Of a DNA stretch of 45,506 bases, positions 9,146 through 39,923 are shown one piece after another. This DNA is from a virus (lineage: Duplodnaviria > Heunggongvirae > Uroviricota > Caudoviricetes). The notes under the pieces are model-generated. The model was not told the DNA's origin and did no database searches. It saw only the letters and a list, made by a program, of their open reading frames with translations. The first letter of the stretch is position 1. Every line of letters begins with the position of its first letter. A program made the translations under genes and the position numbers. The stretch covers positions 1-45,506 of the IMG/VR virus record IMGVR_UViG_2563366923_000008, one strand, 5' to 3'.

Positions 9146-9856
9146 TCACACAAGTCTCAACTTAGTTTCTACAGCCACACCAATGATCCGGCAATTCCCA
9201 TTGATGGGAACCAATGGCCATTGAGGGTTTAAGCCCTTCAGGTACTTCTGGCCCCCATCAATAATCAGCTTTTTGAATGTCGCTTCGTTTGATTCGGATA
9301 GCTTTGCGATCACAAGGCTGCCATTTACTGGCTCTCGGCCGGTATCAAACAAAACGTAGGTACCCTCTGGTATGCTGAGCCCGACCGGGGCAGTCATGGA
9401 TTCCCCCTCGACCAACAACCAGAACGCATCCCCCTGGATGTGAGCGTCTGATTCTAGCCATAGATCGATATCTTTAAGTGCATACGGCTCGCACGCTTCC
9501 GACCAATGCCCAGCCTGAATCTTGCTTAATACAGGGTATTTAATGCCTGGGGTGTACTGGCCTGCATACTTGGCATTCGATGTAGCGGAAGCACTCATTG
9601 CAGATATTTCTTTCGCAAGGCTGGGGCTAAAATCAGAGACATCCACCTGGAGGGCTCTGGCAAAAACAGCAGCCACGGCAGCATTAAGGGCATTCCTGCC
9701 ATTCAAGTAATGCCCAACGCCCCCCTGAGATATGTCTAGCATGTCAGCTATTGATTGCTGTGTTATCCCAAGCTCTTTTTTCTTGGCTTCATAGAGGGCT
9801 TTCAGCCTTTCTGCGTCAGCGATCTGAGCCGATGTCAGTGTCTTTTTCTTTTCCAT
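9146..9856 (-). CDS. cI: CI repressor (Cro/C1 HTH plus LexA-like S24 autopeptidase domain)
   Basis: Near-colinear with lambda CI from memory (LKALYEAKKKELG...SMTAP...FKKLI...LNPQWP...); ATG at 9856 has no SD, consistent with a leaderless PRM transcript; track start at 9862 is TTG. Confidence 0.9.
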   Translation of the reverse strand: MEKKKTLTSAQIADAERLKALYEAKKKELGITQQSIADMLDISQGGVGHYLNGRNALNAAVAAVFARALQVDVSDFSPSLAKEISAMSASATSNAKYAGQYTPGIKYPVLSKIQAGHWSEACEPYALKDIDLWLESDAHIQGDAFWLLVEGESMTAPVGLSIPEGTYVLFDTGREPVNGSLVIAKLSESNEATFKKLIIDGGQKYLKGLNPQWPLVPINGNCRIIGVAVETKLRLV

Positions 9857-9890
9857 TTTCAAATAGTAATACCAATGTTCTTATTTTAAA

Positions 9891-16647: not shown

Positions 16648-16784
16648 GCCGTGACGTTATCGAACGCATCCGCGACCGCTGGCAAAAGCTTCGCCTCCTG
16701 CGTAGCCGCGGCACCGTGCTGGTCGACTACAAAATATTACGCAATTTCGTCCGTATCTATAAGCGCCTGGGAGAAGCAGCATGA
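16644..16784 (+). CDS. Small protein (46 aa), YlcG-like position
   Basis: ATGA overlaps at both ends (rusA stop and Q start); [46 protein letters not shown]. Confidence 0.35.
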
Positions 16785-17470
16785 CAGCTCAATACTTGGA
16801 ATTTGTTCGCCAGCAGCTGATAGTGGCCACCGCCGATCTGAGTGGTGCGACGAAAGGGCAACTGGTAGCTTTTGCAGAGAACGCGCAATTTACCGCTACG
16901 GCGCGCAGCCGTGGCCGGAAGAAGGTGTATAGCGAGGTGAAGCAAAAAATGGTTAACCCGGATGGACCGCCGATGAGCGGCAGCCAGTCCCGCGCTAAGG
17001 GTTCCTCAATCGCTCTCGTTCTGCCCGTTGAATACTCGACAGCCAGCTGGCGCCGCGCCCTCCTGTCGCTGGAAGACCACCAGAAATCCTGGTTGCTGTG
17101 GAACTACAGCGACAATATCCGCTTTGAGTATCAGGTAGCGATAACACAGTGGGCATGGGAAGAATTCCGTGATCAACTCGGCGCTAAGAAAGTGGCCGGC
17201 AAGACGATGGAGCGGCTGAAGAAACTGATATGGCTGGCGGCACAGGACGTGAAAGCAGAGCTGGCGGGTAAGTATGTATATCAGCACCAGGACCTTGCAG
17301 CCCTGTGTGGCGTTAAGCCTGATAACTGGTGCCATAACTACGCTGATTACTGGCGGGCTATGTGCGCCATTTTTAAGCGGCTTGATAGCGACTCTCTTCT
17401 CTGTGCTGTGAGAACACGATCACAACAAAAAGCGACTTTTTCGCAGCAGGGTCTTGCAAAAGTCAATTAA
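16781..17470 (+). CDS. Putative late antiterminator Q
   Basis: 229 aa directly upstream of the PR'/tR' region and lysis cassette; call is mainly positional. Confidence 0.6.
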   Translation: MTAQYLEFVRQQLIVATADLSGATKGQLVAFAENAQFTATARSRGRKKVYSEVKQKMVNPDGPPMSGSQSRAKGSSIALVLPVEYSTASWRRALLSLEDHQKSWLLWNYSDNIRFEYQVAITQWAWEEFRDQLGAKKVAGKTMERLKKLIWLAAQDVKAELAGKYVYQHQDLAALCGVKPDNWCHNYADYWRAMCAIFKRLDSDSLLCAVRTRSQQKATFSQQGLAKVN

Positions 17471-18332: not shown

Positions 18333-18610
18333 ATGACCAGAATGAGCACCATTTACAGCAGACTTTCATATGGAACAGGAACCACGCTGACCGCTGCGGT
18401 GTATCAGCGAAGGCATATGCCGAAACAGCTAAAACAGCAAAAGAGGTGTCCTGGATGTTGGCCGACAGAATTGCAGGGTTAAGCCTGAGCGACTGGGCAA
18501 TTATTGTCGGTATCGCATGCACTGTTATTACCTGTGCAGTGAACTGGTATTTCCGCTGGAAAGAACGGGAGGATCGGCGCAATGGCTATGCCACCAAAGC
18601 TGAAGAATAG
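18333..18610 (+). pseudogene. Pinholin (S21-like class II holin) interrupted by a 47-nt insertion, leaving two small ORFs (18333..18482 and 18455..18610)
   Basis: Frame A gives MTRMSTIYSRLSYGTGTTLTAAVY... (SAR/TMD1-like); frame B gives [42 protein letters not shown]... (TMD2 plus basic tail); deleting 18405-18451 restores one S21-like frame. Confidence 0.5.
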
Positions 18611-19154
18611 CGTTATTGCAGCGATACCCGCTGGCGCTATTGCTATCGCTGCGGCGTTGATTACTGGCCCAACGGGTAATGATGGCCTTGAAGGTGTACG
18701 CTATCAGCCTTATCGGGATGTTGTTGGAGTGTGGACTGTATGCTGGGGCCATACTGGTAAAGATATTATCCTCGGCAAGACCTACACCAAAGCAGAGTGC
18801 CAGGCGCTGCTGGATAAAGACCTGAATATTGTCGCCCGACAGATTAACCCATATATCAATGCTCCGATCCCCGAAACGATGAGAGGGGCGCTGTACTCAT
18901 TTGCGTATAACGTAGGCGCGGGAAACTTCAAAACCTCCACACTGTTACGAAAAATCAACCAGGGTGATTCGAAAGGCGCATGCGAACAACTGCGGCGCTG
19001 GATCTATGCTGGTGACAAACAGTGGAAGGGTTTAATCACGAGGCGTGAGATTGAGCGTGAAGTTTGCCTGTGGGCAGAGAAACCTCAGGTTCTGGGGGAT
19101 GGACTCGGGCCGCTTAACCCTGGCATTCCGGTATCAGTTCCGGGGGTATTCTGA
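18582..19154 (+). CDS. SAR endolysin (GH24 lysozyme with N-terminal signal-anchor-release domain)
   Basis: N-terminal [26 protein letters not shown] then [19 protein letters not shown]...[13 protein letters not shown]; near-colinear with phage 21 R from memory; start may be ATG 18588. Confidence 0.85.
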
Positions 19155-19696
19155 TGAAACCCAGAAAAATTACGATTGTTGCGGTTCTGCTGGTGGCTGT
19201 CGTAATCATTATTGCAGTGCTTAGCGTATTACTGGTTCGTAGCCGCTCAGCTCTTGAAACAGAACAGAGTGAGAATCGGGTATTACGTAATGATAACGCG
19301 CTGCAGGCGACGGTGATAACTACACAGGCTTTCAACTTCAATCGGTTTAACCAGATAGCAGAGAACGCCAACCGCCTTAACTCGCTGATCGATGCCGGTA
19401 CTGAGAAAACTGTCATCGAATACCGGGAGATTCTCCGACGTGAAAAGACCTGTGATCTGCCTGTTCCTGCTGATGTCGCTGGTGGGCTGCTCAAATACGC
19501 GTACCGTTTACGTGCCAGCGCAATGCACCCCGATACCGGGAACACTAACGCAACCGATGATAGTACCGCTGCCGCCAGCTCAATGACGTATTGCCAGGCC
19601 GTCCTCTGGATTGAACCTTTGCTGGCAACGATAGAAAAGGGTAATGGCAATTTTTCCGGAATACGGGAAATAGAGAACGTAAGAGCCTCGCAATAG
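19154..19696 (+). CDS. Rz-like i-spanin
   Basis: 180 aa with N-terminal TM helix (IVAVLLVAVVIIIAVLSVLLV) and coiled-coil periplasmic domain; embedded +1-frame lipoprotein ORF. Confidence 0.75.
   Translation: MKPRKITIVAVLLVAVVIIIAVLSVLLVRSRSALETEQSENRVLRNDNALQATVITTQAFNFNRFNQIAENANRLNSLIDAGTEKTVIEYREILRREKTCDLPVPADVAGGLLKYAYRLRASAMHPDTGNTNATDDSTAAASSMTYCQAVLWIEPLLATIEKGNGNFSGIREIENVRASQ
19392..19586 (+). CDS. Rz1-like o-spanin lipoprotein embedded in Rz
   Basis: Lipobox LVGC followed by a Pro-rich mature peptide CSNTRTVYVPAQCTPIPGTLTQPMIVPLPPAQ; start uncertain (ATG 19392 or GTG 19440). Confidence 0.6.
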   Translation: MPVLRKLSSNTGRFSDVKRPVICLFLLMSLVGCSNTRTVYVPAQCTPIPGTLTQPMIVPLPPAQ

Positions 19697-19726: not shown

Positions 19727-20020
19727 ATGGAAAAAGAACAAAACGGCGCTGCAATCTTTCCTGTAGCAAAAGACTTTAAATTCTGTCTTGGGCAACTAGT
19801 GAACTTGCGCATTAGTGATGAGTTCGGCGAGGTACAGGCCCGCTCCCAGCATGTGACAGGTGAGAACCAGTACTTTATTTACTACCAGGCCGCCAATAAA
19901 TGTGCGACTGAGCGCTGGTATTCCGAATCGCAACTGGTAGCGGTGGAAGATGACCGTTCTCCGGGTATGCCTGTCTTTGGTTGTGTTGAGTTGCCGGAAG
20001 GTGCGGCGGTTGAAGAGTAA
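19727..20020 (+). CDS. Hypothetical protein
   Basis: 97 aa, good RBS. Confidence 0.5.
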   Translation: MEKEQNGAAIFPVAKDFKFCLGQLVNLRISDEFGEVQARSQHVTGENQYFIYYQAANKCATERWYSESQLVAVEDDRSPGMPVFGCVELPEGAAVEE

Positions 20021-20148
20021 GGCATTACAGCAGGCATTCACTGAGTGCCTGCGACAAAGCTAAATGGCATCAAGCATGCGATGATGATTGATTAATAATT
20101 GAGCTATGCATGGTATAATAAGCCACATTCATTGAAAGGTTAACCACC

Positions 20149-20313
20149 ATGTCATTTTTCGATTATGCAATGCAGCGTGTTGGGCTTGCAGCCAATACGA
20201 CTGTCATGTGCCCGATATGCGGACATAAATCCACACACTCGACCACGAAAGTACGCCAACAACAGGCGTTACTTTGCCCTAAATGTAAATCTCTGTTTGT
20301 CATTCACAGGTAG
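20149..20313 (+). CDS. Small zinc-ribbon protein (54 aa), stand-alone moron
   Basis: MSFFDYAMQRVGLAANTTVMCPICGHKSTHSTTKVRQQQALLCPKCKSLFVIHR; own extended -10 promoter (TGgTATAAT 20111-20119) and a perfect terminator. Confidence 0.5.
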   Translation: MSFFDYAMQRVGLAANTTVMCPICGHKSTHSTTKVRQQQALLCPKCKSLFVIHR

Positions 20314-20338
20314 TGGGTCGCGATACAAATAACCCCAG

Positions 20339-20362
20339 GCCTCGCAATTGCGAGGCTTTTTT
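20339..20362 (+). terminator. Rho-independent terminator of the zinc-ribbon moron
   Basis: GCCTCGCAATTGCGAGGC followed by TTTTTT. Confidence 0.6.
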
Positions 20363-20505
20363 ATACCAGCAGTAAACGCGCATCTCACGCGCATATTAAC
20401 GAGAGCCTTTCAGTAAGCGAGCCTGAGAAATGCCGTTATAGGTGGCGACCTCTCTCGGGCGGCTTTTCTGTGAGACAGGCTCACTTTCTAAAAGGTAAAG
20501 ACGCT

Positions 20506-21003
20506 ATGAAAGCAATCACGCTTTTTAATACACCGATCCGTGTTGATGAATCAGGAATGATCTGCCTCACTGATATGTGGAAAGCCAGTGGTAAAAGTGA
20601 ATCTGAATCTCCGTACCACTACCTGCGAAACAAGCAGACCAAAGAGTTCTTAGCCGAGCTGGAGAAAAACCACGAATCTGTGGTTTTTACTGAGCGCGGT
20701 GTACACGGTGGAACATATGGCGGGAAGTTTGTTGCTTACGATTATGCGGCTTGGTTAAACCCCGGGTTCAAGTACGCGGCCTATAAAGTCCTCGATGACT
20801 ACTTCACTGGAGAACTTCAGCATCGCAACAGCTTAAGTGCGCAGCTCAACATGAAATGTCATGAGTTTGACCAGAAGAAAGACATGGCGAGCTTCTGCGG
20901 ACAAGGGCTGGCGGCATGGCGCTATACGAAGCCAGTGTTGGTCGCTGAGATTAACTCCCTGGCTAACCAGCTGCAGATTACGATCCCCGGGCTTCCGGGA
21001 TGA
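20506..21003 (+). CDS. KilA-N domain protein (antirepressor-like)
   Basis: MKAITLFNTPIRVDESGMICLTDMWKASGKSESESPYHYLRNKQTKEFLAELEK fits the KilA-N pattern; track start 20470 is GTG, ATG at 20506 has a better RBS. Confidence 0.7.
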   Translation: MKAITLFNTPIRVDESGMICLTDMWKASGKSESESPYHYLRNKQTKEFLAELEKNHESVVFTERGVHGGTYGGKFVAYDYAAWLNPGFKYAAYKVLDDYFTGELQHRNSLSAQLNMKCHEFDQKKDMASFCGQGLAAWRYTKPVLVAEINSLANQLQITIPGLPG

Positions 21004-21257
21004 GTGATCGTGTCATTGAATGCGCCTCCAGAGCGGGGCGCGACTTCTCAGAGTTCATGAAAGGCGAGAAGGGCATGATGGAAGCATTGGCCTCGGTGGA
21101 TGAGTTTGGCGAGCAGCTGCGCCTCAACGGCTGTGTCAATCATCACTTTGTTAGCTACATGATGCGGAACTCGATCATGCAGGCATTCATGGACATGGCA
21201 AAAGCCGAGAGGAAAGAAGAGCGCCGGCGTAAGCGAGCGGAAGCAAAAGCGAAGTAG
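21000..21257 (+). CDS. Hypothetical protein translationally coupled to the KilA-N gene
   Basis: ATGA overlap; 85 aa with basic Lys/Arg/Glu-rich C-terminus. Confidence 0.5.
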   Translation: MSDRVIECASRAGRDFSEFMKGEKGMMEALASVDEFGEQLRLNGCVNHHFVSYMMRNSIMQAFMDMAKAERKEERRRKRAEAKAK

Positions 21258-21391
21258 CCATTACAAAGCTCATCTGCGGGTGGGCTTGATAATGGGGATG
21301 AATATCGCAATTTTTATTGTGGTTGACATAATTAGCTGATTTGCAATGATTATTTTGCTGTTGGTATAATTAATCCTCTACTACGAGAGGG

Positions 21392-21676
21392 ATGACTATG
21401 CTGACAATAATTTTGTTTGGTGCTGGCTGGAAAGGTGATGTTTGGGCTCTCGAGAGCTACAGTCCCGTTATTAAGGCTCCTGATCGGACATTTAGGCTTC
21501 TGAAAAGCTCTGGGGGTGCCCCGATCTTCGAGGATGCTGAGTTTGATGTTTTCGAATATCAGCTTGGTGATGAAATTTATCTGGTTGGCTGTCATGGGAA
21601 TAAGCCTAGTGACGATGTGATTATGTCACACATCCAGCATGGTGACCCTAAGCCGAAACCATACAAAACACTGTAA
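21392..21676 (+). CDS. Hypothetical protein (94 aa), stand-alone moron
   Basis: Own promoter TTGCAA-18 nt-TGgTATAAT (21341-21370), SD, and terminator. Confidence 0.55.
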   Translation: MTMLTIILFGAGWKGDVWALESYSPVIKAPDRTFRLLKSSGGAPIFEDAEFDVFEYQLGDEIYLVGCHGNKPSDDVIMSHIQHGDPKPKPYKTL

Positions 21677-21696
21677 CCGCCTCCGGGCGGTTTTTT
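21676..21696 (+). terminator. Rho-independent terminator of the 94-aa moron
   Basis: CCGCC-tccg-GGCGG followed by TTTTTT. Confidence 0.55.
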
Positions 21697-21786
21697 ATTG
21701 CCATCACCGAACAGGCATTACAGCAGGCATTCCCTGAGTGTCTGCGATAATGCTTTATTATCATTGTTAACGACGGGGTAAAAATC

Positions 21787-21984
21787 ATGAAAATTTTAGT
21801 TGAACACAACTCCAAAGTTATCTGGATGCGTGATAATGAAACATCTGAAGGTGTGGCCTGCAGGAGTTATATTAAGGACGGCGTACAGCAAAAGATTATT
21901 GCCGCCCTTGAGGATGCCTTAGCTCAGGCAAAGGGTGAGTTATTATGCTGGAATGACTCTGATGCTGTGAGTGACATTTCCTGA
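21787..21984 (+). CDS. Hypothetical small protein
   Basis: 65 aa ORF with plausible RBS. Confidence 0.4.
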   Translation: MKILVEHNSKVIWMRDNETSEGVACRSYIKDGVQQKIIAALEDALAQAKGELLCWNDSDAVSDIS

Positions 21985-22023
21985 GCCACCACCTAAATCA
22001 ATCGTAACGTTCCAGTATCCCAT

Positions 22024-22278
22024 ATGAGGCGCAACCAACCGGGTCGGAAGTCTCTCGAAGAAACCACCACCACCATGATGATGAAAACCCCGGTTATTTT
22101 TATAACTATTGAAGTTACTGTCGGTAGTGAGAAGGATGTTGCACTGGTGCGAGCAGTCAACAACAACGACATCACCTGCATTCAGGTGCATTCGTTTGTG
22201 AAGAAATTGCATAAGTCTCCTTATCAAGAGGCAATCAGCACTCCTCTCAAGGCTGGTACGCCAACGTCCCACCGCTGA
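22024..22278 (+). CDS. Hypothetical small protein
   Basis: 84 aa ORF; start uncertain. Confidence 0.3.
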   Translation: MRRNQPGRKSLEETTTTMMMKTPVIFITIEVTVGSEKDVALVRAVNNNDITCIQVHSFVKKLHKSPYQEAISTPLKAGTPTSHR

Positions 22279-22380
22279 CGGGCTGAGCCATTACCTTACC
22301 CAGACTCAACGATAAGTAACATCCTGATATTCAGACAGTAACTGTAATCGATAATGCTGAAGAATAGGCAGTAAATACAG

Positions 22381-23028
22381 GTGACTGATATGGCAACACT
22401 GAAGGATTTATCAAACCAGTTAAAGCAACTGCAAAAGCAAATCCCGTTTGCCACAGCTCAGGCGATGACAAAAGTTGTACGCCAGATTGAGTTGGCTCAG
22501 AAGACGGCATTCGAACGACATCTGGAGAGCCCCACGCCGTTTACCGTTAAATCAGTTGGTTCGGTGGCGGCAAGAAAGAACAATCTGACCGCAAAGGTTT
22601 TTGTCCGCGATACCGCTGCTGGTTATCTGGAACCATTCGAGTTTGGCGGAGAGCACAAGCTCAATAGCCAGGCTCTATTAAATCCCAAGAACGTTAAGCT
22701 AAACAAATACGGCAACATGCCGCGTAATAAGCTCTCACAGCTTAAAACAAAGGAAAATGTATTCGTAGGTGAGGTTGATGGCGTTAACGCTGTCTGGCAG
22801 CGTAAGAAGCCGATGAAAGCTAAGAAGCGACGGGCCAAACGTTCCGCTAACGGGACGCGAAGACCGAAACGCAAACAGCGTTCTCCAAAGCTTTTGATCC
22901 GGTTTGGTGATGCGCTACCTGTGACTCCAGTGCTGGGGTATATGGATAGGTCCCATACCATGGCGAACGCACTGCTACCGTCTGCTTTAAATCAGGCGAT
23001 AGCAGAAGCCATCAGGACGGCAAAATAA
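22381..23028 (+). CDS. Hypothetical protein with very basic C-terminal region
   Basis: 215 aa; KKPMKAKKRRAKRSANGTRRPKRKQRSPK tract suggests nucleic-acid binding. Confidence 0.5.
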   Translation: MTDMATLKDLSNQLKQLQKQIPFATAQAMTKVVRQIELAQKTAFERHLESPTPFTVKSVGSVAARKNNLTAKVFVRDTAAGYLEPFEFGGEHKLNSQALLNPKNVKLNKYGNMPRNKLSQLKTKENVFVGEVDGVNAVWQRKKPMKAKKRRAKRSANGTRRPKRKQRSPKLLIRFGDALPVTPVLGYMDRSHTMANALLPSALNQAIAEAIRTAK

Positions 23029-23038
23029 AAGCAGTAAC

Positions 23039-23542
23039 TTATAAGTTAATTTCGCAAGCTTTTATGAAGCTGTTTACTGCAGTTGTCGATCCAGAAACAT
23101 TGGCTGACATGGAATGCTGGTTTCCGCCATCCTTTGTTTGCACACCAACTAACACTTTGGATTTCGCCCCCTGAAGCTGCTTAAGCACTGTTTTTAGTTG
23201 GTCCGCGTCATCCGATTGAATCTGGAGGCTCTGAACATTACGTCTTGAAAGGGTAGCATCGAGCTTCACTGCGGTATTCCCGTCGACCTTCATTATCAGG
23301 TCCATTGGTACCTCTGATAGTGATTCGGTGCTTTTATCCATTTCAACGTATGCCGCCGATAGCTTTTCTTTAGTGCAGTCAAACACAATGGCGCCATTGT
23401 CGGATGAAACCTCGCCAAGCATCATTGCTTTCTTACCACCAGAGAAAAGGTCATCTTCAGTATTAGTTACCCACTGGGCATGAGCAATTGGTGATGCCAG
23501 CACTGCGGCTACGAAAGTTATTTTGATTATATTGTTACCCAT
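23039..23542 (-). CDS. Secreted or periplasmic protein of unknown function (opposite-strand moron)
   Basis: ATG at 23542 with AAGGAG SD at 6-nt spacing; signal peptide MGNNIIKITFVAAVLASPIAHA|QW; AT-rich; only minus-strand gene in the late region before the fibre switch. Confidence 0.6.
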   Translation of the reverse strand: MGNNIIKITFVAAVLASPIAHAQWVTNTEDDLFSGGKKAMMLGEVSSDNGAIVFDCTKEKLSAAYVEMDKSTESLSEVPMDLIMKVDGNTAVKLDATLSRRNVQSLQIQSDDADQLKTVLKQLQGAKSKVLVGVQTKDGGNQHSMSANVSGSTTAVNSFIKACEINL

Positions 23543-23685
23543 TACATTCTCCTTGTATTGAATAGGAATAATCATAGTCGGAGCGAATGGTCGAAGCCAT
23601 AAAAAAATGGGTCCTTCCTGAGACTTTTGTAAGGTACGGGCATTGCGCGCCGCGGTGTTTTCCTAGCTACAACTTTCAGATTTGT

Positions 23686-38841: not shown

Positions 38842-39923
38842 ATGCAGACAGCGATCTGGATGTTGTTTCTTTGACGGTCGACGGCAAAATCATCGAGGGG
38901 TGGGATTCTGTCCGGGTAACGCGGGGTATTGAGCGTTTTCCCTCTGATTTCGATCTTGGGCTAATGGATTACTTCCCTGGCAACGAAGATCGTCAACTCG
39001 TTGAAGAGGGAATGTCTTGTGAAGTTCGTATCGGAGATGATCTGACACTGACGGGATATGTTGATGACTGGGAACCCGCACTATCGCGCTCCCGCCATGA
39101 GGTCCGCGCCACGGGCAGGAGCAAATGTCAGGACCTGGTGGATTGCTCAGCCGAGTGGCCTAACAACGTCATCAATGCCAGTAATGCGCTTGAAATTGCT
39201 TCTCGCCTGGCATCCTACTACGGCATCACCGTAACCACGGATGTTGATGAACTTGTGAAGGTACCCCAGTTCACTCTGAACTGGGGTGAGTCTCCGCAAG
39301 AAGTCATCGATCGGGTGGCCAGATGGTCTGCTCTGCTTTACTACGATCAGCCCGATGGAAACCTGTTACTGACCCGGGTGGGAACACGTCGTGCGGCAAG
39401 TGGGATAGCCGAAGGGGTAAATGTCGAGCAGGCATACTACCGCAAATCGATGGCTGACAGGTTTTCAGATTATGTCGGTGTATCAATGAGCGTTTCTCCA
39501 ATTGCAGGGTATTCGCCTGATACGGCCTATGACGCTGTGACTCTGGCAACGGCGAGAGATCCGGAGGCCGCCCGCATGCGGTACCGAAAACATATATCGA
39601 TTGTGGAAAGTACCCTGATGGCTACTCAACAGGCACAAAGTGCGATCGACTGGGAAATGAACCGGCGGTACGGACGTTCAAAACAGCTCTCGGTAACCAT
39701 CGATTCCTGGCGGGATAAAGACGGGAAACTGTGGGAACCAAACACATTGATCCCCGTTGATCTTCCCACCTTACGGTTGCCGAAGACTGAATTGCTACTG
39801 GCAGAAGTCACCTATATGCGCGATGACTACGGCACCCATGCACGCATGACGCTGATGCCGCCTGAAGCATTCTCCGTTCAGCCATATGCCTTCTACCAGA
39901 ACCTGGCGGGATTCAATACATGA
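38838..39923 (+). CDS. Baseplate hub protein (Mu gpP / gpD-like)
   Basis: 361 aa; ATGA overlap; positional and size match. Confidence 0.6.
   Translation: MNADSDLDVVSLTVDGKIIEGWDSVRVTRGIERFPSDFDLGLMDYFPGNEDRQLVEEGMSCEVRIGDDLTLTGYVDDWEPALSRSRHEVRATGRSKCQDLVDCSAEWPNNVINASNALEIASRLASYYGITVTTDVDELVKVPQFTLNWGESPQEVIDRVARWSALLYYDQPDGNLLLTRVGTRRAASGIAEGVNVEQAYYRKSMADRFSDYVGVSMSVSPIAGYSPDTAYDAVTLATARDPEAARMRYRKHISIVESTLMATQQAQSAIDWEMNRRYGRSKQLSVTIDSWRDKDGKLWEPNTLIPVDLPTLRLPKTELLLAEVTYMRDDYGTHARMTLMPPEAFSVQPYAFYQNLAGFNT

What the first reader, a model, noticed from the sequence alone, without database searches (positions are those of the whole stretch)
20506..21257. KilA-N domain gene translationally coupled to an 85-aa partner
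The KilA-N protein (166 aa from ATG 20506) and a downstream 85-aa ORF share an ATGA overlap. KilA-N domains occur in antirepressors and in some prophage-encoded defence proteins. A coupled two-gene arrangement in a moron block could be either an antirepressor module or a defence pair.
Basis: inference. Interest (0 to 1): 0.4.

Follow-up and report, generated by a model that had tools for sequence, protein, structure and literature searches.

The report
Leader-gated KilA-N gene with coupled partner
This is the uncharacterised hkbK-hkbL gene pair of lambdoid phages, a DNA-binding KilA-N protein and a small helical protein translated in tandem; it sits behind a conserved folded RNA leader that hides its ribosome-binding site, and its function is still unknown.

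Summary
ATG 20506 to TGA 21003 encodes a 165-aa KilA-N + ORF11CD3 protein, not 166 aa. It overlaps by ATGA an 85-aa ORF (21000-21257). The pair is hkbK/hkbL of phage HK620 and occurs in 1130 of 5426 complete E. coli genomes.

The partner is a narrow Enterobacterales family under purifying selection (dN/dS 0.05-0.22), modelled as three helices with a basic tail. In 247 of 249 loci it abuts an upstream gene (8-nt overlap to 2-nt gap). That gene varies: KilA-N+ORF11CD3, KilA-N+P63C, or Rha-type. The partner's core domain also occurs fused to T5orf172 nuclease-like domains.

An unreported feature precedes the pair: a terminator plus a ~130-nt leader whose long hairpin pairs CCUUU with the KilA-N Shine-Dalgarno. 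Covariation supports it (24 of 31 pairs compensatory) and Rfam has no match. The same leader precedes Rha and HNH endonuclease genes elsewhere.

No homology links the pair to characterised antirepressors or defence systems. Most likely it is a late-operon, translationally throttled DNA-directed accessory cassette. Antirepressor, defence and selfish-element readings remain open.

The parts
20337..20364 (+). Intrinsic terminator hairpin with a U-run. It travels with the cassette.
   Evidence: The terminator scan finds it in the window. An equivalent hairpin plus U-run lies at the same distance upstream in HK022, Klebsiella and Enterobacter loci that have different upstream genes. It is present in most of the 20 aligned leaders.
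20378..20392 (+). Small GCGC...GCGC hairpin (leader helix 1).
   Evidence: It is predicted in the minimum-free-energy fold of most of the 20 leaders. It is 100% paired in 61 distinct sequences, and all 4 pairs show a both-sided change somewhere.
20405..20496 (+). Long irregular hairpin of the leader. Its base pairs GCCUUU (20405-20410) with AAAGGU (20491-20496), which contains the Shine-Dalgarno of the KilA-N gene.
   Evidence: Minimum-free-energy and centroid folds of the window leader. Seventeen of the 20 individually folded leaders give the same architecture, with the anti-SD paired to the SD at the base. RNAalifold finds 13 of 21 pairs compensatory. Pair counts: 87.9% paired against 35-51% for slid controls; 90.4% against at most 50.4%, with 24 of 31 pairs compensatory against 6-10. 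The covariance model finds one copy in the window at 20376-20510, 103 bits.
20506..21003 (+). hkbK-like gene, 165 aa: KilA-N domain (aa 7-101) plus ORF11CD3 domain (aa 109-161).
21000..21003 (+). ATGA start/stop overlap (translational coupling junction).
   Evidence: Read from the sequence. Tight junctions are conserved in 247 of 249 loci.
21000..21257 (+). hkbL-like gene, 85 aa: three-helix protein with a basic C-terminal tail (EERRRKRAEAKAK).
   Evidence: It matches phrog_875 (unknown function) at E 3e-54 and has no Pfam, NCBIfam or PADLOC family. The AF2 model has pLDDT 92.8 with helices 3-20, 26-42 and 48-84. A profile search of 1.84 billion cluster representatives finds only 21. dN/dS is 0.05-0.22.

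Best explanation
The locus is a mobile, non-essential accessory cassette of temperate enterobacterial phages, embedded in the late operon between Q/lysis and terminase. It has three parts: (1) an intrinsic terminator followed by a ~130-nt structured leader; (2) a Bro-network DNA-binding protein (KilA-N plus an ORF11CD3 helical hairpin); and (3) a translationally coupled 85-aa helical, basic protein (HkbL).

Shown: the gene organisation; conservation of the tight junction; the covarying leader hairpin that pairs an anti-SD with the KilA-N Shine-Dalgarno; the APSES-like DNA-binding fold; and the narrow, purifying-selected partner family.

Inferred: transcription reaches the cassette only when Q-modified RNA polymerase reads through the terminator, so expression is late and lytic. 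The leader keeps translation of the first gene low or conditional. The partner has no SD of its own, so it is made only by ribosomes that terminate on the first gene. One RNA switch would therefore gate both proteins, at a ratio of one to one or less. The two proteins then act on nucleic acid as a late accessory regulator. KilA-N would bind DNA. HkbL would supply a second nucleic-acid-directed or targeting module, because its core domain elsewhere forms the N-terminal module of T5orf172 (GIY-YIG-like) proteins.

Both genes swap partners freely, so the coupling is more likely an expression device than a sign of an obligate specific heterodimer.
For: - Identity and spread: the region is 98.4% identical to HK620 hkbK-hkbL, which lies between Rz and terminase. 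It is present in 1130 of 5426 complete E. coli genomes.
- Late-operon setting in a lambdoid prophage: int, CI-like repressor, O-like protein, Q-like protein, lysis genes, then terminase.
- Elsewhere the cassette sits between tail chaperone and tape-measure genes or before the tailspike, always co-oriented with late genes.
- No sigma-70-like promoter lies between the terminator and the ATG in four independent contexts.
- Leader structure: 90.4% of cells paired against at most 50.4% for slid controls; 24 of 31 pairs compensatory against 6-10; 0 of 500 shuffles reach the observed score. Frequent G-U pairs on the sense strand favour RNA over DNA.
- Coupling: 247 of 249 junctions lie between an 8-nt overlap and a 2-nt gap.
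- Partner domain fused to T5orf172/MUG113: hhalign probability 96.7 and 95.6. Those fusion genes sit in the same hot spots, and two are preceded by the same leader.
- Promiscuity: the partner follows KilA-N+ORF11CD3, KilA-N+P63C, Rha+ANT and a Rha protein with an unassigned C-terminal region. More distant KilA-N+ORF11CD3 genes are coupled to unrelated small ORFs.
Against: - No experiment or homologue gives either protein a function.
- The single-sequence folding z-score of the leader is only -1.55, so the structure rests on covariation. Part of that covariation comes from an alignment fitted to the model.
- What opens the hairpin is unknown. No internal promoter and no trans-complementary RNA was found in the window.
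- Late expression is inferred from position only; no transcript data were available.
- The fold of HkbL is a generic helical bundle with no informative structural neighbour, so nucleic-acid binding is a guess from its basic tail and its domain partners.
- A physical HkbK-HkbL complex was not tested.
Confidence: 0.42

Rival explanations
1. Selfish, homing-like cassette. The leader-plus-gene unit is a mobile element that spreads between related phages, and the proteins mainly serve its own propagation. In this reading KilA-N and HkbL are DNA-targeting modules related to those of free-standing endonuclease genes.
For: One leader subfamily precedes alternative genes at equivalent positions: HNH_3(+AP2) endonucleases, an HkbL-like::T5orf172 fusion, Rha proteins and KilA-N proteins. 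The cassette sits sporadically in several intergenic late-region hot spots with sharp homology boundaries. Terminators and RBS-sequestering hairpins are part of the documented control of free-standing and intron-encoded homing endonuclease genes in T4-like phages (PMC2988022). Some loci carry two leader-gene units in tandem.
Against: HkbK and HkbL have no recognisable nuclease domain. Strong purifying selection on the 85-aa partner and carriage in about a fifth of complete E. coli genomes also fit a useful function. No target site or homing asymmetry could be tested. Lower-scoring leader copies also precede cargo that is not DNA-directed, such as a protein annotated as tellurite resistance.
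Confidence: 0.2
2. Antirepressor module. HkbK, with or without HkbL, binds and inactivates a CI-type repressor. Made late, it would prevent re-repression or cross-induce co-resident heteroimmune prophages.
For: The protein belongs to the Bro/KilA-N/Rha/ANT domain-shuffling network that includes antirepressors (PMC10111431). In some phages the partner and its upstream Rha-type gene lie directly downstream of arc/mnt-like genes and a P22-type ant gene (L086, L099). In L091 the cassette sits next to such a module. There are weak PHROG matches to families labelled anti-repressor.
Against: There is no ANT, Bro-N, P22_AR_N or P22_AR_C domain. The best PHROG families are labelled 'unknown' or 'transcriptional regulator'. 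The window shows no arc/mnt-like gene next to the cassette and no C4/isrK-type RNA. A gene behind a terminator in the late operon with a hidden SD is mistimed for triggering induction. Database 'anti-repressor' labels on relatives such as P22 rha are annotations, not tests.
Confidence: 0.15
3. Prophage-encoded defence or superinfection-exclusion pair, acting like the KilA-N-containing abortive-infection protein BstA.
For: [quoted passage not shown] There is a local PADLOC match to the candidate PDC-S22 (E 6.8e-9, aa 60-90). The pair lies in an accessory region rich in small, separately regulated genes.
Against: There is no match to a BstA model, and the partner matches no PADLOC model convincingly. 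BstA lies downstream of the cI repressor and is highly expressed in lysogeny. This pair lies in the late operon, behind a terminator, without a promoter-like site and with a sequestered SD, so expression in lysogens is not expected.
Confidence: 0.12
4. Kill/antidote pair. The KilA-N protein is toxic to the host, as reported for P1 KilA (my own knowledge, not checked here), and the coupled small protein tempers it.
For: Tight translational control by the leader, and obligatory co-translation of the small protein, would suit a toxic first gene. HK620 hkbK is annotated as similar to P1 KilA.
Against: The partner also follows unrelated upstream proteins (KilA-N+P63C, Rha+ANT). KilA-N+ORF11CD3 genes elsewhere are followed by unrelated small ORFs or by none (phiEt88). 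Rha+ORF11CD3 genes behind the same leader have no partner at all. Natural deletion derivatives keep the partner but lose the upstream gene. None of this fits a cognate toxin-antidote pair.
Confidence: 0.08

Closest known systems
hkbK-hkbL of coliphage HK620; the same pair occurs unannotated in HK022, in mEp234/mEp235/mEpX1/mEpX2 and in many Stx-converting phages
   Same: The two genes are 98.4% identical at nucleotide level to HK620, with the same ATGA overlap and the same position after the spanin gene and before terminase.
   Different: Nothing of substance differs in the genes. In the window extra small genes lie between Rz and the cassette. No function is published for hkbK or hkbL in the library searched.
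Bro-network (KilA-N / Bro-N / Rha / ANT / ORF11CD3 / P63C / T5orf172) domain-shuffling phage proteins (Iyer et al. 2002, as cited in PMC10111431)
   Same: An N-terminal DNA-binding module joined to an interchangeable C-terminal module. Swaps are seen here directly: KilA-N with ORF11CD3 or P63C, and Rha with ORF11CD3 or ANT.
   Different: The conserved coupled 85-aa partner, and a partner-like domain acting as the N-terminal module of T5orf172 proteins, are not covered by any Pfam or NCBIfam model scanned here.
P22 rha (same slot, after Rz)
   Same: It sits at the same position and is preceded by the same leader (103 bits). P22-type Rha carries the same ORF11CD3 C-terminal domain.
   Different: The N-terminal domain is Rha rather than KilA-N, and there is no coupled partner.
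RBS-sequestering hairpins and upstream terminators that control homing endonuclease genes in T4-like phages (I-TevI, segB, Aeh1 mobE; PMC2988022)
   Same: A stable hairpin hides the Shine-Dalgarno of a gene carried on a long polycistronic transcript, a terminator limits read-through, and the same leader here also precedes HNH and GIY-YIG-like genes.
   Different: In T4 a late promoter inside the structure produces a shorter transcript with a free RBS. No such promoter-like site was found here, and the releasing signal is unknown. The sequences are unrelated.
BstA abortive-infection protein (PMC8585504)
   Same: A KilA-N(-like) N-terminal domain, carried by a prophage.
   Different: No match to a BstA model in PADLOC. 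BstA is encoded downstream of the cI repressor locus and is expressed in lysogeny with a cognate aba element. This pair is in the late operon behind a terminator.
P1/P7 c4 and P4 CI / IsrK RNA control of Bro-network genes
   Same: An RNA-level control element placed in front of a Bro-network gene, with translational coupling used to pass the control on to a downstream gene (PMC10111431).
   Different: No Rfam C4 or isrK match at E up to 1. Here the element is a cis hairpin and no antisense partner was found.

Membership tests
KilA-N domain proteins (PF04383) | Match to the KilA-N profile above the curated cut-off | tested here: met
   58.5 bits against a cut-off of 23.8, E 6.6e-16, aa 7-101.
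KilA-N domain proteins (PF04383) | APSES-like alpha/beta DNA-binding fold | tested here: met
Bro-network domain-shuffling proteins | C-terminal module from the network (ORF11CD3, PF10549) | tested here: met
   50.5 bits against a cut-off of 25, aa 109-161.
Bro-network domain-shuffling proteins | Evidence of module exchange among close relatives | tested here: met
   A relative with Rha+ORF11CD3 is 97% identical over the C-terminal 77% of the query (P0148). KilA-N+P63C and Rha+ANT occupy the same place upstream of the partner.
Characterised antirepressors (P22 Ant type; ANT/KilA-C type) | Bro-N / P22_AR_N / P22_AR_C or ANT domain | tested here: not met
   None of these Pfam families matches at E up to 0.01.
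Characterised antirepressors (P22 Ant type; ANT/KilA-C type) | Dedicated control that allows expression before late genes (Arc/Mnt or antisense RNA) | tested here: not met
   The neighbouring window ORFs scanned show no Arc/Mnt-type family. Rfam finds no C4/isrK match. The gene lies behind a terminator in the late operon. LexA boxes were not searched for.
Characterised antirepressors (P22 Ant type; ANT/KilA-C type) | Binds and inactivates a CI-type repressor | not testable with these tools
   This needs interaction or induction assays.
BstA abortive-infection family | KilA-N-like N-domain plus the conserved BstA C-terminal domain | tested here: not met
   KilA-N is present, but there is no PADLOC BstA hit at E up to 0.1. 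The only hit is local, to PDC-S22. BstA features were taken from PMC8585504.
BstA abortive-infection family | Encoded downstream of the prophage repressor and expressed in lysogeny | tested here: not met
   The CI-like repressor is at 9146-9862 and the pair at 20506-21257, downstream of Q and the lysis genes. Expression was not testable.
BstA abortive-infection family | Cognate aba self-immunity DNA element spanning the start of the gene | not tested
   No sequence criterion for aba applies outside BstA homologues.
Moron (promoter - gene - terminator unit) | Own promoter upstream and terminator downstream | tested here: not met
   No sigma-70-like site lies between 20365 and 20505. The terminator is upstream of the pair and none lies between 21257 and the next promoter-like site at 21323. 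The same holds in L082, L089 and HK022. Consensus scans can miss weak or activator-dependent promoters.
C4 / IsrK antisense-RNA control elements (Rfam RF01695, RF01394) | Match to the covariance model | tested here: not met
   No hit at E up to 1 in 19900-21500. The hits listed rest on the terminator hairpin or are chance-level, and none reaches its gathering score.
T4-type hairpin control of homing endonuclease genes | Shine-Dalgarno sequestered in a stable hairpin on read-through transcripts | tested here: met
   GCCUUU 20405-20410 pairs with AAAGGU 20491-20496, with covariation support.
T4-type hairpin control of homing endonuclease genes | Internal late promoter that yields a transcript with a free RBS | tested here: inconclusive
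   No sigma-70-like site lies in the leader. Lambdoid phages have no separate late-promoter class to scan for, so another release mechanism would be needed.

The most novel reading that the evidence does not exclude
The terminator-plus-leader is a previously undescribed cis-regulatory RNA family. It defines a widespread 'gated accessory slot' in temperate enterobacterial phages (lambda-like, P22-like, HK97-like, Stx phages, Klebsiella and Erwinia phages). A single SD-sequestering hairpin throttles interchangeable DNA-directed cargo in that slot: KilA-N, Rha, HNH/AP2 and T5orf172 genes. HkbL would be a new stand-alone module of the Bro network, passed between these genes by recombination at the stop/start junction. 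The slot may be the lambdoid counterpart of the regulated free-standing homing-endonuclease insertions of T4-like phages.
Probability: 0.4. Interest if true: 0.65.

Novelty: new variant of a known kind. Interest (0 to 1): 0.5.

Why it matters
The pair is carried by about a fifth of complete E. coli genomes, including Stx-converting phages, yet it has no known function. The analysis turns a vague choice between 'antirepressor' and 'defence' into a concrete, testable anatomy. One covarying RNA hairpin should gate two proteins through translational coupling. The same leader in front of Rha, HNH and GIY-YIG-like genes suggests a general control module for potentially harmful DNA-directed accessory genes in temperate phages. 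If confirmed, it would add an RNA family to the catalogue. It would also clarify how the long-puzzling Bro-network genes are expressed, and it would correct gene starts such as P22 rha.

Tried and rejected
- Zinc site: C8, C45, H48 and H49 are nearly invariant within the family, but the remote homologue P0134 replaces C8, C45 and H48. A general zinc site was dropped.
- PDB sequence search with the KilA-N protein gave no hit. NCBIfam has no family for either protein.
- Natural fusions of HkbL to its upstream gene: the few longer proteins are frameshift or read-through artefacts. The exhaustive profile search shows no genuine C-terminal fusion.
- A domain shared by all partner-associated upstream proteins: none exists. 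KilA-N or Rha occurs at the N-terminus; ORF11CD3, P63C, ANT or an unassigned region at the C-terminus. Rha+ORF11CD3 genes lack the partner.
- Trans-acting RNA: neither hairpin arm has a second copy or complement in the window at up to 3 mismatches.
- Rfam: only sub-threshold hits, on the terminator hairpin or at chance level.
- Literature: no paper mentions hkbK or hkbL as phage genes (the 'hkbK/hkbL' search returned only unrelated papers), and none combines KilA-N with anti-defence.
- The genome-contig scan returned only 5 loci. That confirms the narrow host range but adds little context.
- P0113 was not on record for context look-up.
- Structure prediction of the HkbK-HkbL complex was not attempted, because the tool reports no interface measure.
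Full report
**Observation**

The window carries an ORF from ATG 20506 to TGA 21003 (498 nt, 165 aa) and a second ORF from ATG 21000 to 21257 (85 aa). They share ATGA at 21000-21003. Pfam assigns KilA-N to aa 7-101 (E 6.6e-16) and a second domain, ORF11CD3, to aa 109-161 (E 2.4e-13). The 85-aa protein has no Pfam, NCBIfam or convincing PADLOC family. It belongs to PHROG 875, of unknown function. The bases before ATG 21000 (CTTCCGGG) offer no Shine-Dalgarno at workable spacing, so translation by termination-reinitiation is the natural reading (inference).

**Setting**

The window is a lambdoid prophage. It carries an integrase at 1-1194, RecT and exonuclease genes, a CI-like repressor at 9146-9862 on the minus strand, and an O-like replication gene. 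A Q-like antiterminator lies at 16781-17470, the endolysin and spanin genes at 18582-19696, and small and large terminase genes from 23832. The pair therefore lies in the late operon, inside an accessory block (19727-23575). That block also holds a YnfU-like zinc-ribbon ORF, a 94-aa ORF with its own promoter-like site and terminator, and a DUF1883 gene on the other strand.

**Identity**

The region is 98.4% identical to hkbK-hkbL of coliphage HK620, where the pair lies between the spanin gene and terminase. Matching DNA occurs in 95 phage records, including many Stx-converting phages, Salmonella phages and the mEp phages. It also occurs in 1130 of 5426 complete E. coli genomes. HK022 carries an unannotated version. 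The literature library holds nothing on the function of either gene.

**The partner protein**

- The family is narrow. A word-indexed search found 138 relatives, all of those that carry a source name being from Enterobacterales, and mostly 83-88 aa.
- An exhaustive profile search of 1.84 billion cluster representatives found only 21. A scan of 185,579 species genomes found 5 loci.
- Pairwise dN/dS is 0.05-0.22 with saturated dS, so this is a real protein under purifying selection.
- AlphaFold gives a confident model (pLDDT 92.8) with helices 3-20, 26-42 and 48-84, ending in a basic tail, EERRRKRAEAKAK.
- Structural searches return only generic helical bundles.
- Two Cys and two His are nearly invariant within the family but are not kept in a remote homologue, so a general zinc site is unlikely.

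**The pairing is tight but not exclusive**

I fetched loci with several divergent partners and analysed 249 with an upstream ORF.

| Junction | Loci |
|---|---|
| 4-nt overlap | 156 |
| 2-nt gap | 86 |
| 1-nt gap | 4 |
| 8-nt overlap | 1 |
| Apparent frameshift | 2 |

The upstream gene falls into four architectures:
- KilA-N+ORF11CD3 (about 155 loci).
- KilA-N+P63C (about 90 loci, including HK022).
- Rha+ANT (1 locus).
- A Rha protein with an unassigned C-terminal region (3 loci).

Both major partner clades occur with both KilA-N types. Conversely, more distant KilA-N+ORF11CD3 genes are coupled by the same ATGA overlap to unrelated small ORFs. Examples are a Yersinia prophage and a contig carrying the phiEt88 protein; in phiEt88 itself that ORF looks disrupted. 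P22-type Rha+ORF11CD3 genes have no partner. Five loci are deletion derivatives that keep the partner while nearly the whole upstream gene is gone. No single domain accounts for the association. That argues against an obligate cognate heterodimer or a toxin-antidote pair. It favours coupling as an expression device, or two proteins that act on a common third target.

**The partner core is itself a shuffled module**

Two remote relatives, P0132 and P0134, align over partner residues 4-59 and 5-59 (hhalign probability 96.7 and 95.6). They continue into a T5orf172/MUG113 domain of the GIY-YIG type. A third such fusion turned up independently. These genes sit in the same hot spots, between lysis genes and terminase or inside the tail cluster next to a KilA-N+P63C gene and an arc/mnt/Bro-N module. 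In these proteins the HkbL-like domain occupies the position usually held by a DNA-targeting module. This is the only, indirect, hint that HkbL is directed at nucleic acid.

**An unreported leader**

In every context examined, the KilA-N gene is preceded by about 170 nt that travel with it. This holds after Rz in the window, HK620, HK022 and phiEt88, and between tail genes in Klebsiella and Enterobacter prophages. The conserved stretch has three elements:
- An intrinsic terminator (window 20337-20364).
- A small GCGC hairpin (20378-20392).
- A long irregular hairpin (20405-20496).

Folded one at a time, 17 of 20 divergent leaders give the same architecture. At its base GCCUUU (20405-20410) pairs with AAAGGU (20491-20496), the Shine-Dalgarno 10 nt before the AUG.

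Covariation evidence:
- RNAalifold finds 13 of 21 pairs with compensatory changes.
- On 19 sequences, a 31-pair structure is 87.9% paired against 35-51% when partners are slid. Sixteen pairs change on both sides against 2-6, and 0 of 500 shuffles reach the covariation score.
- On 61 distinct sequences gathered with a covariance model, it is 90.4% paired against at most 50.4%. Twenty-four pairs are compensatory against 6-10.

Caveats: the structure was derived from these sequences, the larger alignment was fitted to the model, and the single-sequence z-score is only -1.55. G-U pairs are frequent on the sense strand, which favours an RNA rather than a DNA structure. Rfam 15 has no convincing match, including C4 and isrK, which control other Bro-network genes. 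No sigma-70-like promoter lies between terminator and start codon in four contexts. Neither hairpin arm has a complement elsewhere in the window.

**The leader is portable**

The model hits directly upstream of three other kinds of gene:
- P22 rha (103 bits). The hit implies that the annotated rha start lies inside the leader and that the true start is the ATG at L263 2146.
- An HkbL-like::T5orf172 gene (42.5 bits).
- With lower scores, other accessory genes.

A pattern scan for one leader subfamily in viral contigs returned at least 120 stretches. The genes that follow are KilA-N+ORF11CD3 with coupled partner, Rha, Rha+ORF11CD3, other KilA-N proteins, HNH_3(+AP2) endonucleases and an HkbL-like::T5orf172 fusion. 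Some loci hold two leader-gene units. The window's pair is therefore one occupant of a polymorphic slot with a terminator, an SD-sequestering leader and a variable, mostly DNA-directed gene. The closest documented logic is in T4-like phages. There, RBS-sequestering hairpins, and in some cases terminators, restrict homing endonuclease genes on polycistronic transcripts (PMC2988022). In T4 an internal late promoter frees the RBS, and nothing comparable was found here.

**The KilA-N protein**

**Weighing the interpretations**

- Antirepressor: the pair belongs to the domain network that includes antirepressors. In a few phages the partner and its Rha-type neighbour follow an arc/mnt/ant module. 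However, no antirepressor-defining domain is present. PHROG matches to families labelled anti-repressor are weak. A gene behind a terminator in the late operon with a hidden SD is mistimed for triggering induction.
- Defence: BstA shows that KilA-N proteins can mediate abortive infection. But BstA is encoded next to the repressor and is highly expressed in lysogens. This protein lacks the BstA match and has the opposite regulatory setting.
- Selfish, homing-like: the shared leader and the endonuclease alternatives support this reading. The lack of any nuclease domain, the strong purifying selection and the high prevalence weaken it.
- Toxin-antidote: the two-way promiscuity and the partner-only derivatives contradict it.

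My best account is a late-operon, read-through-dependent, translationally throttled DNA-directed accessory cassette in which one RNA hairpin gates both proteins. I put it at about 0.4, with the selfish-element reading next at about 0.2.

**Novelty**

The gene pair itself is long sequenced and ordinary in the databases. Three things appear undescribed, as far as the tools show:
- The conserved coupling of the HkbL family to interchangeable Bro-network genes.
- The HkbL-like domain as a module of T5orf172 proteins.
- The covarying SD-sequestering leader shared with Rha, HNH and T5orf172 genes.

I rate the finding a new variant of a known kind, of moderate interest. None of it establishes the function.

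Noticed in passing
window 20337-20505: A conserved terminator plus a structured leader whose long hairpin sequesters the Shine-Dalgarno of the KilA-N gene. Covariation supports it, Rfam 15 does not contain it, and it is shared with Rha, HNH and T5orf172 genes in other phages.
   Followed up: yes
L263 (phage P22, NC_002371) 2007-2149; record about 39506-39648: The annotated rha start (locus 2076, GTG) lies inside the leader hairpin. The leader model ends at ATG 2146 (MNELIANH...), which is probably the true start.
   Followed up: partly
L093 (phage HK022, NC_002166) 1767-2498 and 2501-2758: The reference record annotates nothing here, but a KilA-N+P63C gene and an intact 85-aa partner are present, preceded by the same terminator and leader.
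   Followed up: partly
L165, L167, L170, L171, L174 (about 2347-2755): Deletion derivatives. The 5' half of the leader is fused to the last 15 codons of a KilA-N+P63C gene (…AFPVKGQMKLLYAAA*). The partner is intact and is followed by a terminator. An SD-like AAAGGG precedes the internal ATG of the remnant.
   Followed up: partly
L094 (Actinobacillus phage vB_Apl-pPE4, PP818812) 1941-2569: A phage recorded as infecting Actinobacillus carries a KilA-N gene whose product is identical to the window's. Its partner is cut off after 22 codons. A partial leader copy precedes a gene annotated as 'tellurite resistance'. This is odd for the stated host.
   Followed up: no
L194, L286, L297, L298: Two leader copies per locus, each in front of a different gene (for example HNH_3+AP2 and Rha, or KilA-N and an unassigned 198-aa protein). 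The slot can evidently be duplicated in tandem.
   Followed up: partly
window 20092-20358: A promoter-like site (TTAATA-16-TATAAT with an upstream TG), a 54-aa YnfU-like zinc-ribbon ORF (20149-20313), then the terminator at 20337. Together they look like a classical moron that shares the cassette's terminator.
   Followed up: no
window 21323-21692: Two overlapping promoter-like sites, a 94-aa ORF (21392-21676, phrog_17438, unknown function) and a bidirectional terminator at 21675-21692. This is a self-contained moron-like unit just downstream of the pair.
   Followed up: no
window 21943-22272 (-) and 22381-23028 (+): A DUF1883 protein lies on the opposite strand. A 215-aa ORF matching PHROG 1924 ('minor tail protein') lies upstream of the terminase genes, an unusual place for a tail gene.
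   Followed up: no
window 21201-21254 (partner aa 68-85): The C-terminal tail AERKEERRRKRAEAKAK resembles the arginine-rich RNA-binding motifs of lambdoid N proteins. This is from memory and may be no more than a low-complexity resemblance.
   Followed up: no
L102 (contig of a 'Candidatus Nanosynbacter' MAG): A 4-kb contig binned to a Patescibacteria MAG carries a partner 99% identical to the window's, plus the leader. It is most likely an enterobacterial phage contig that was mis-binned.
   Followed up: no
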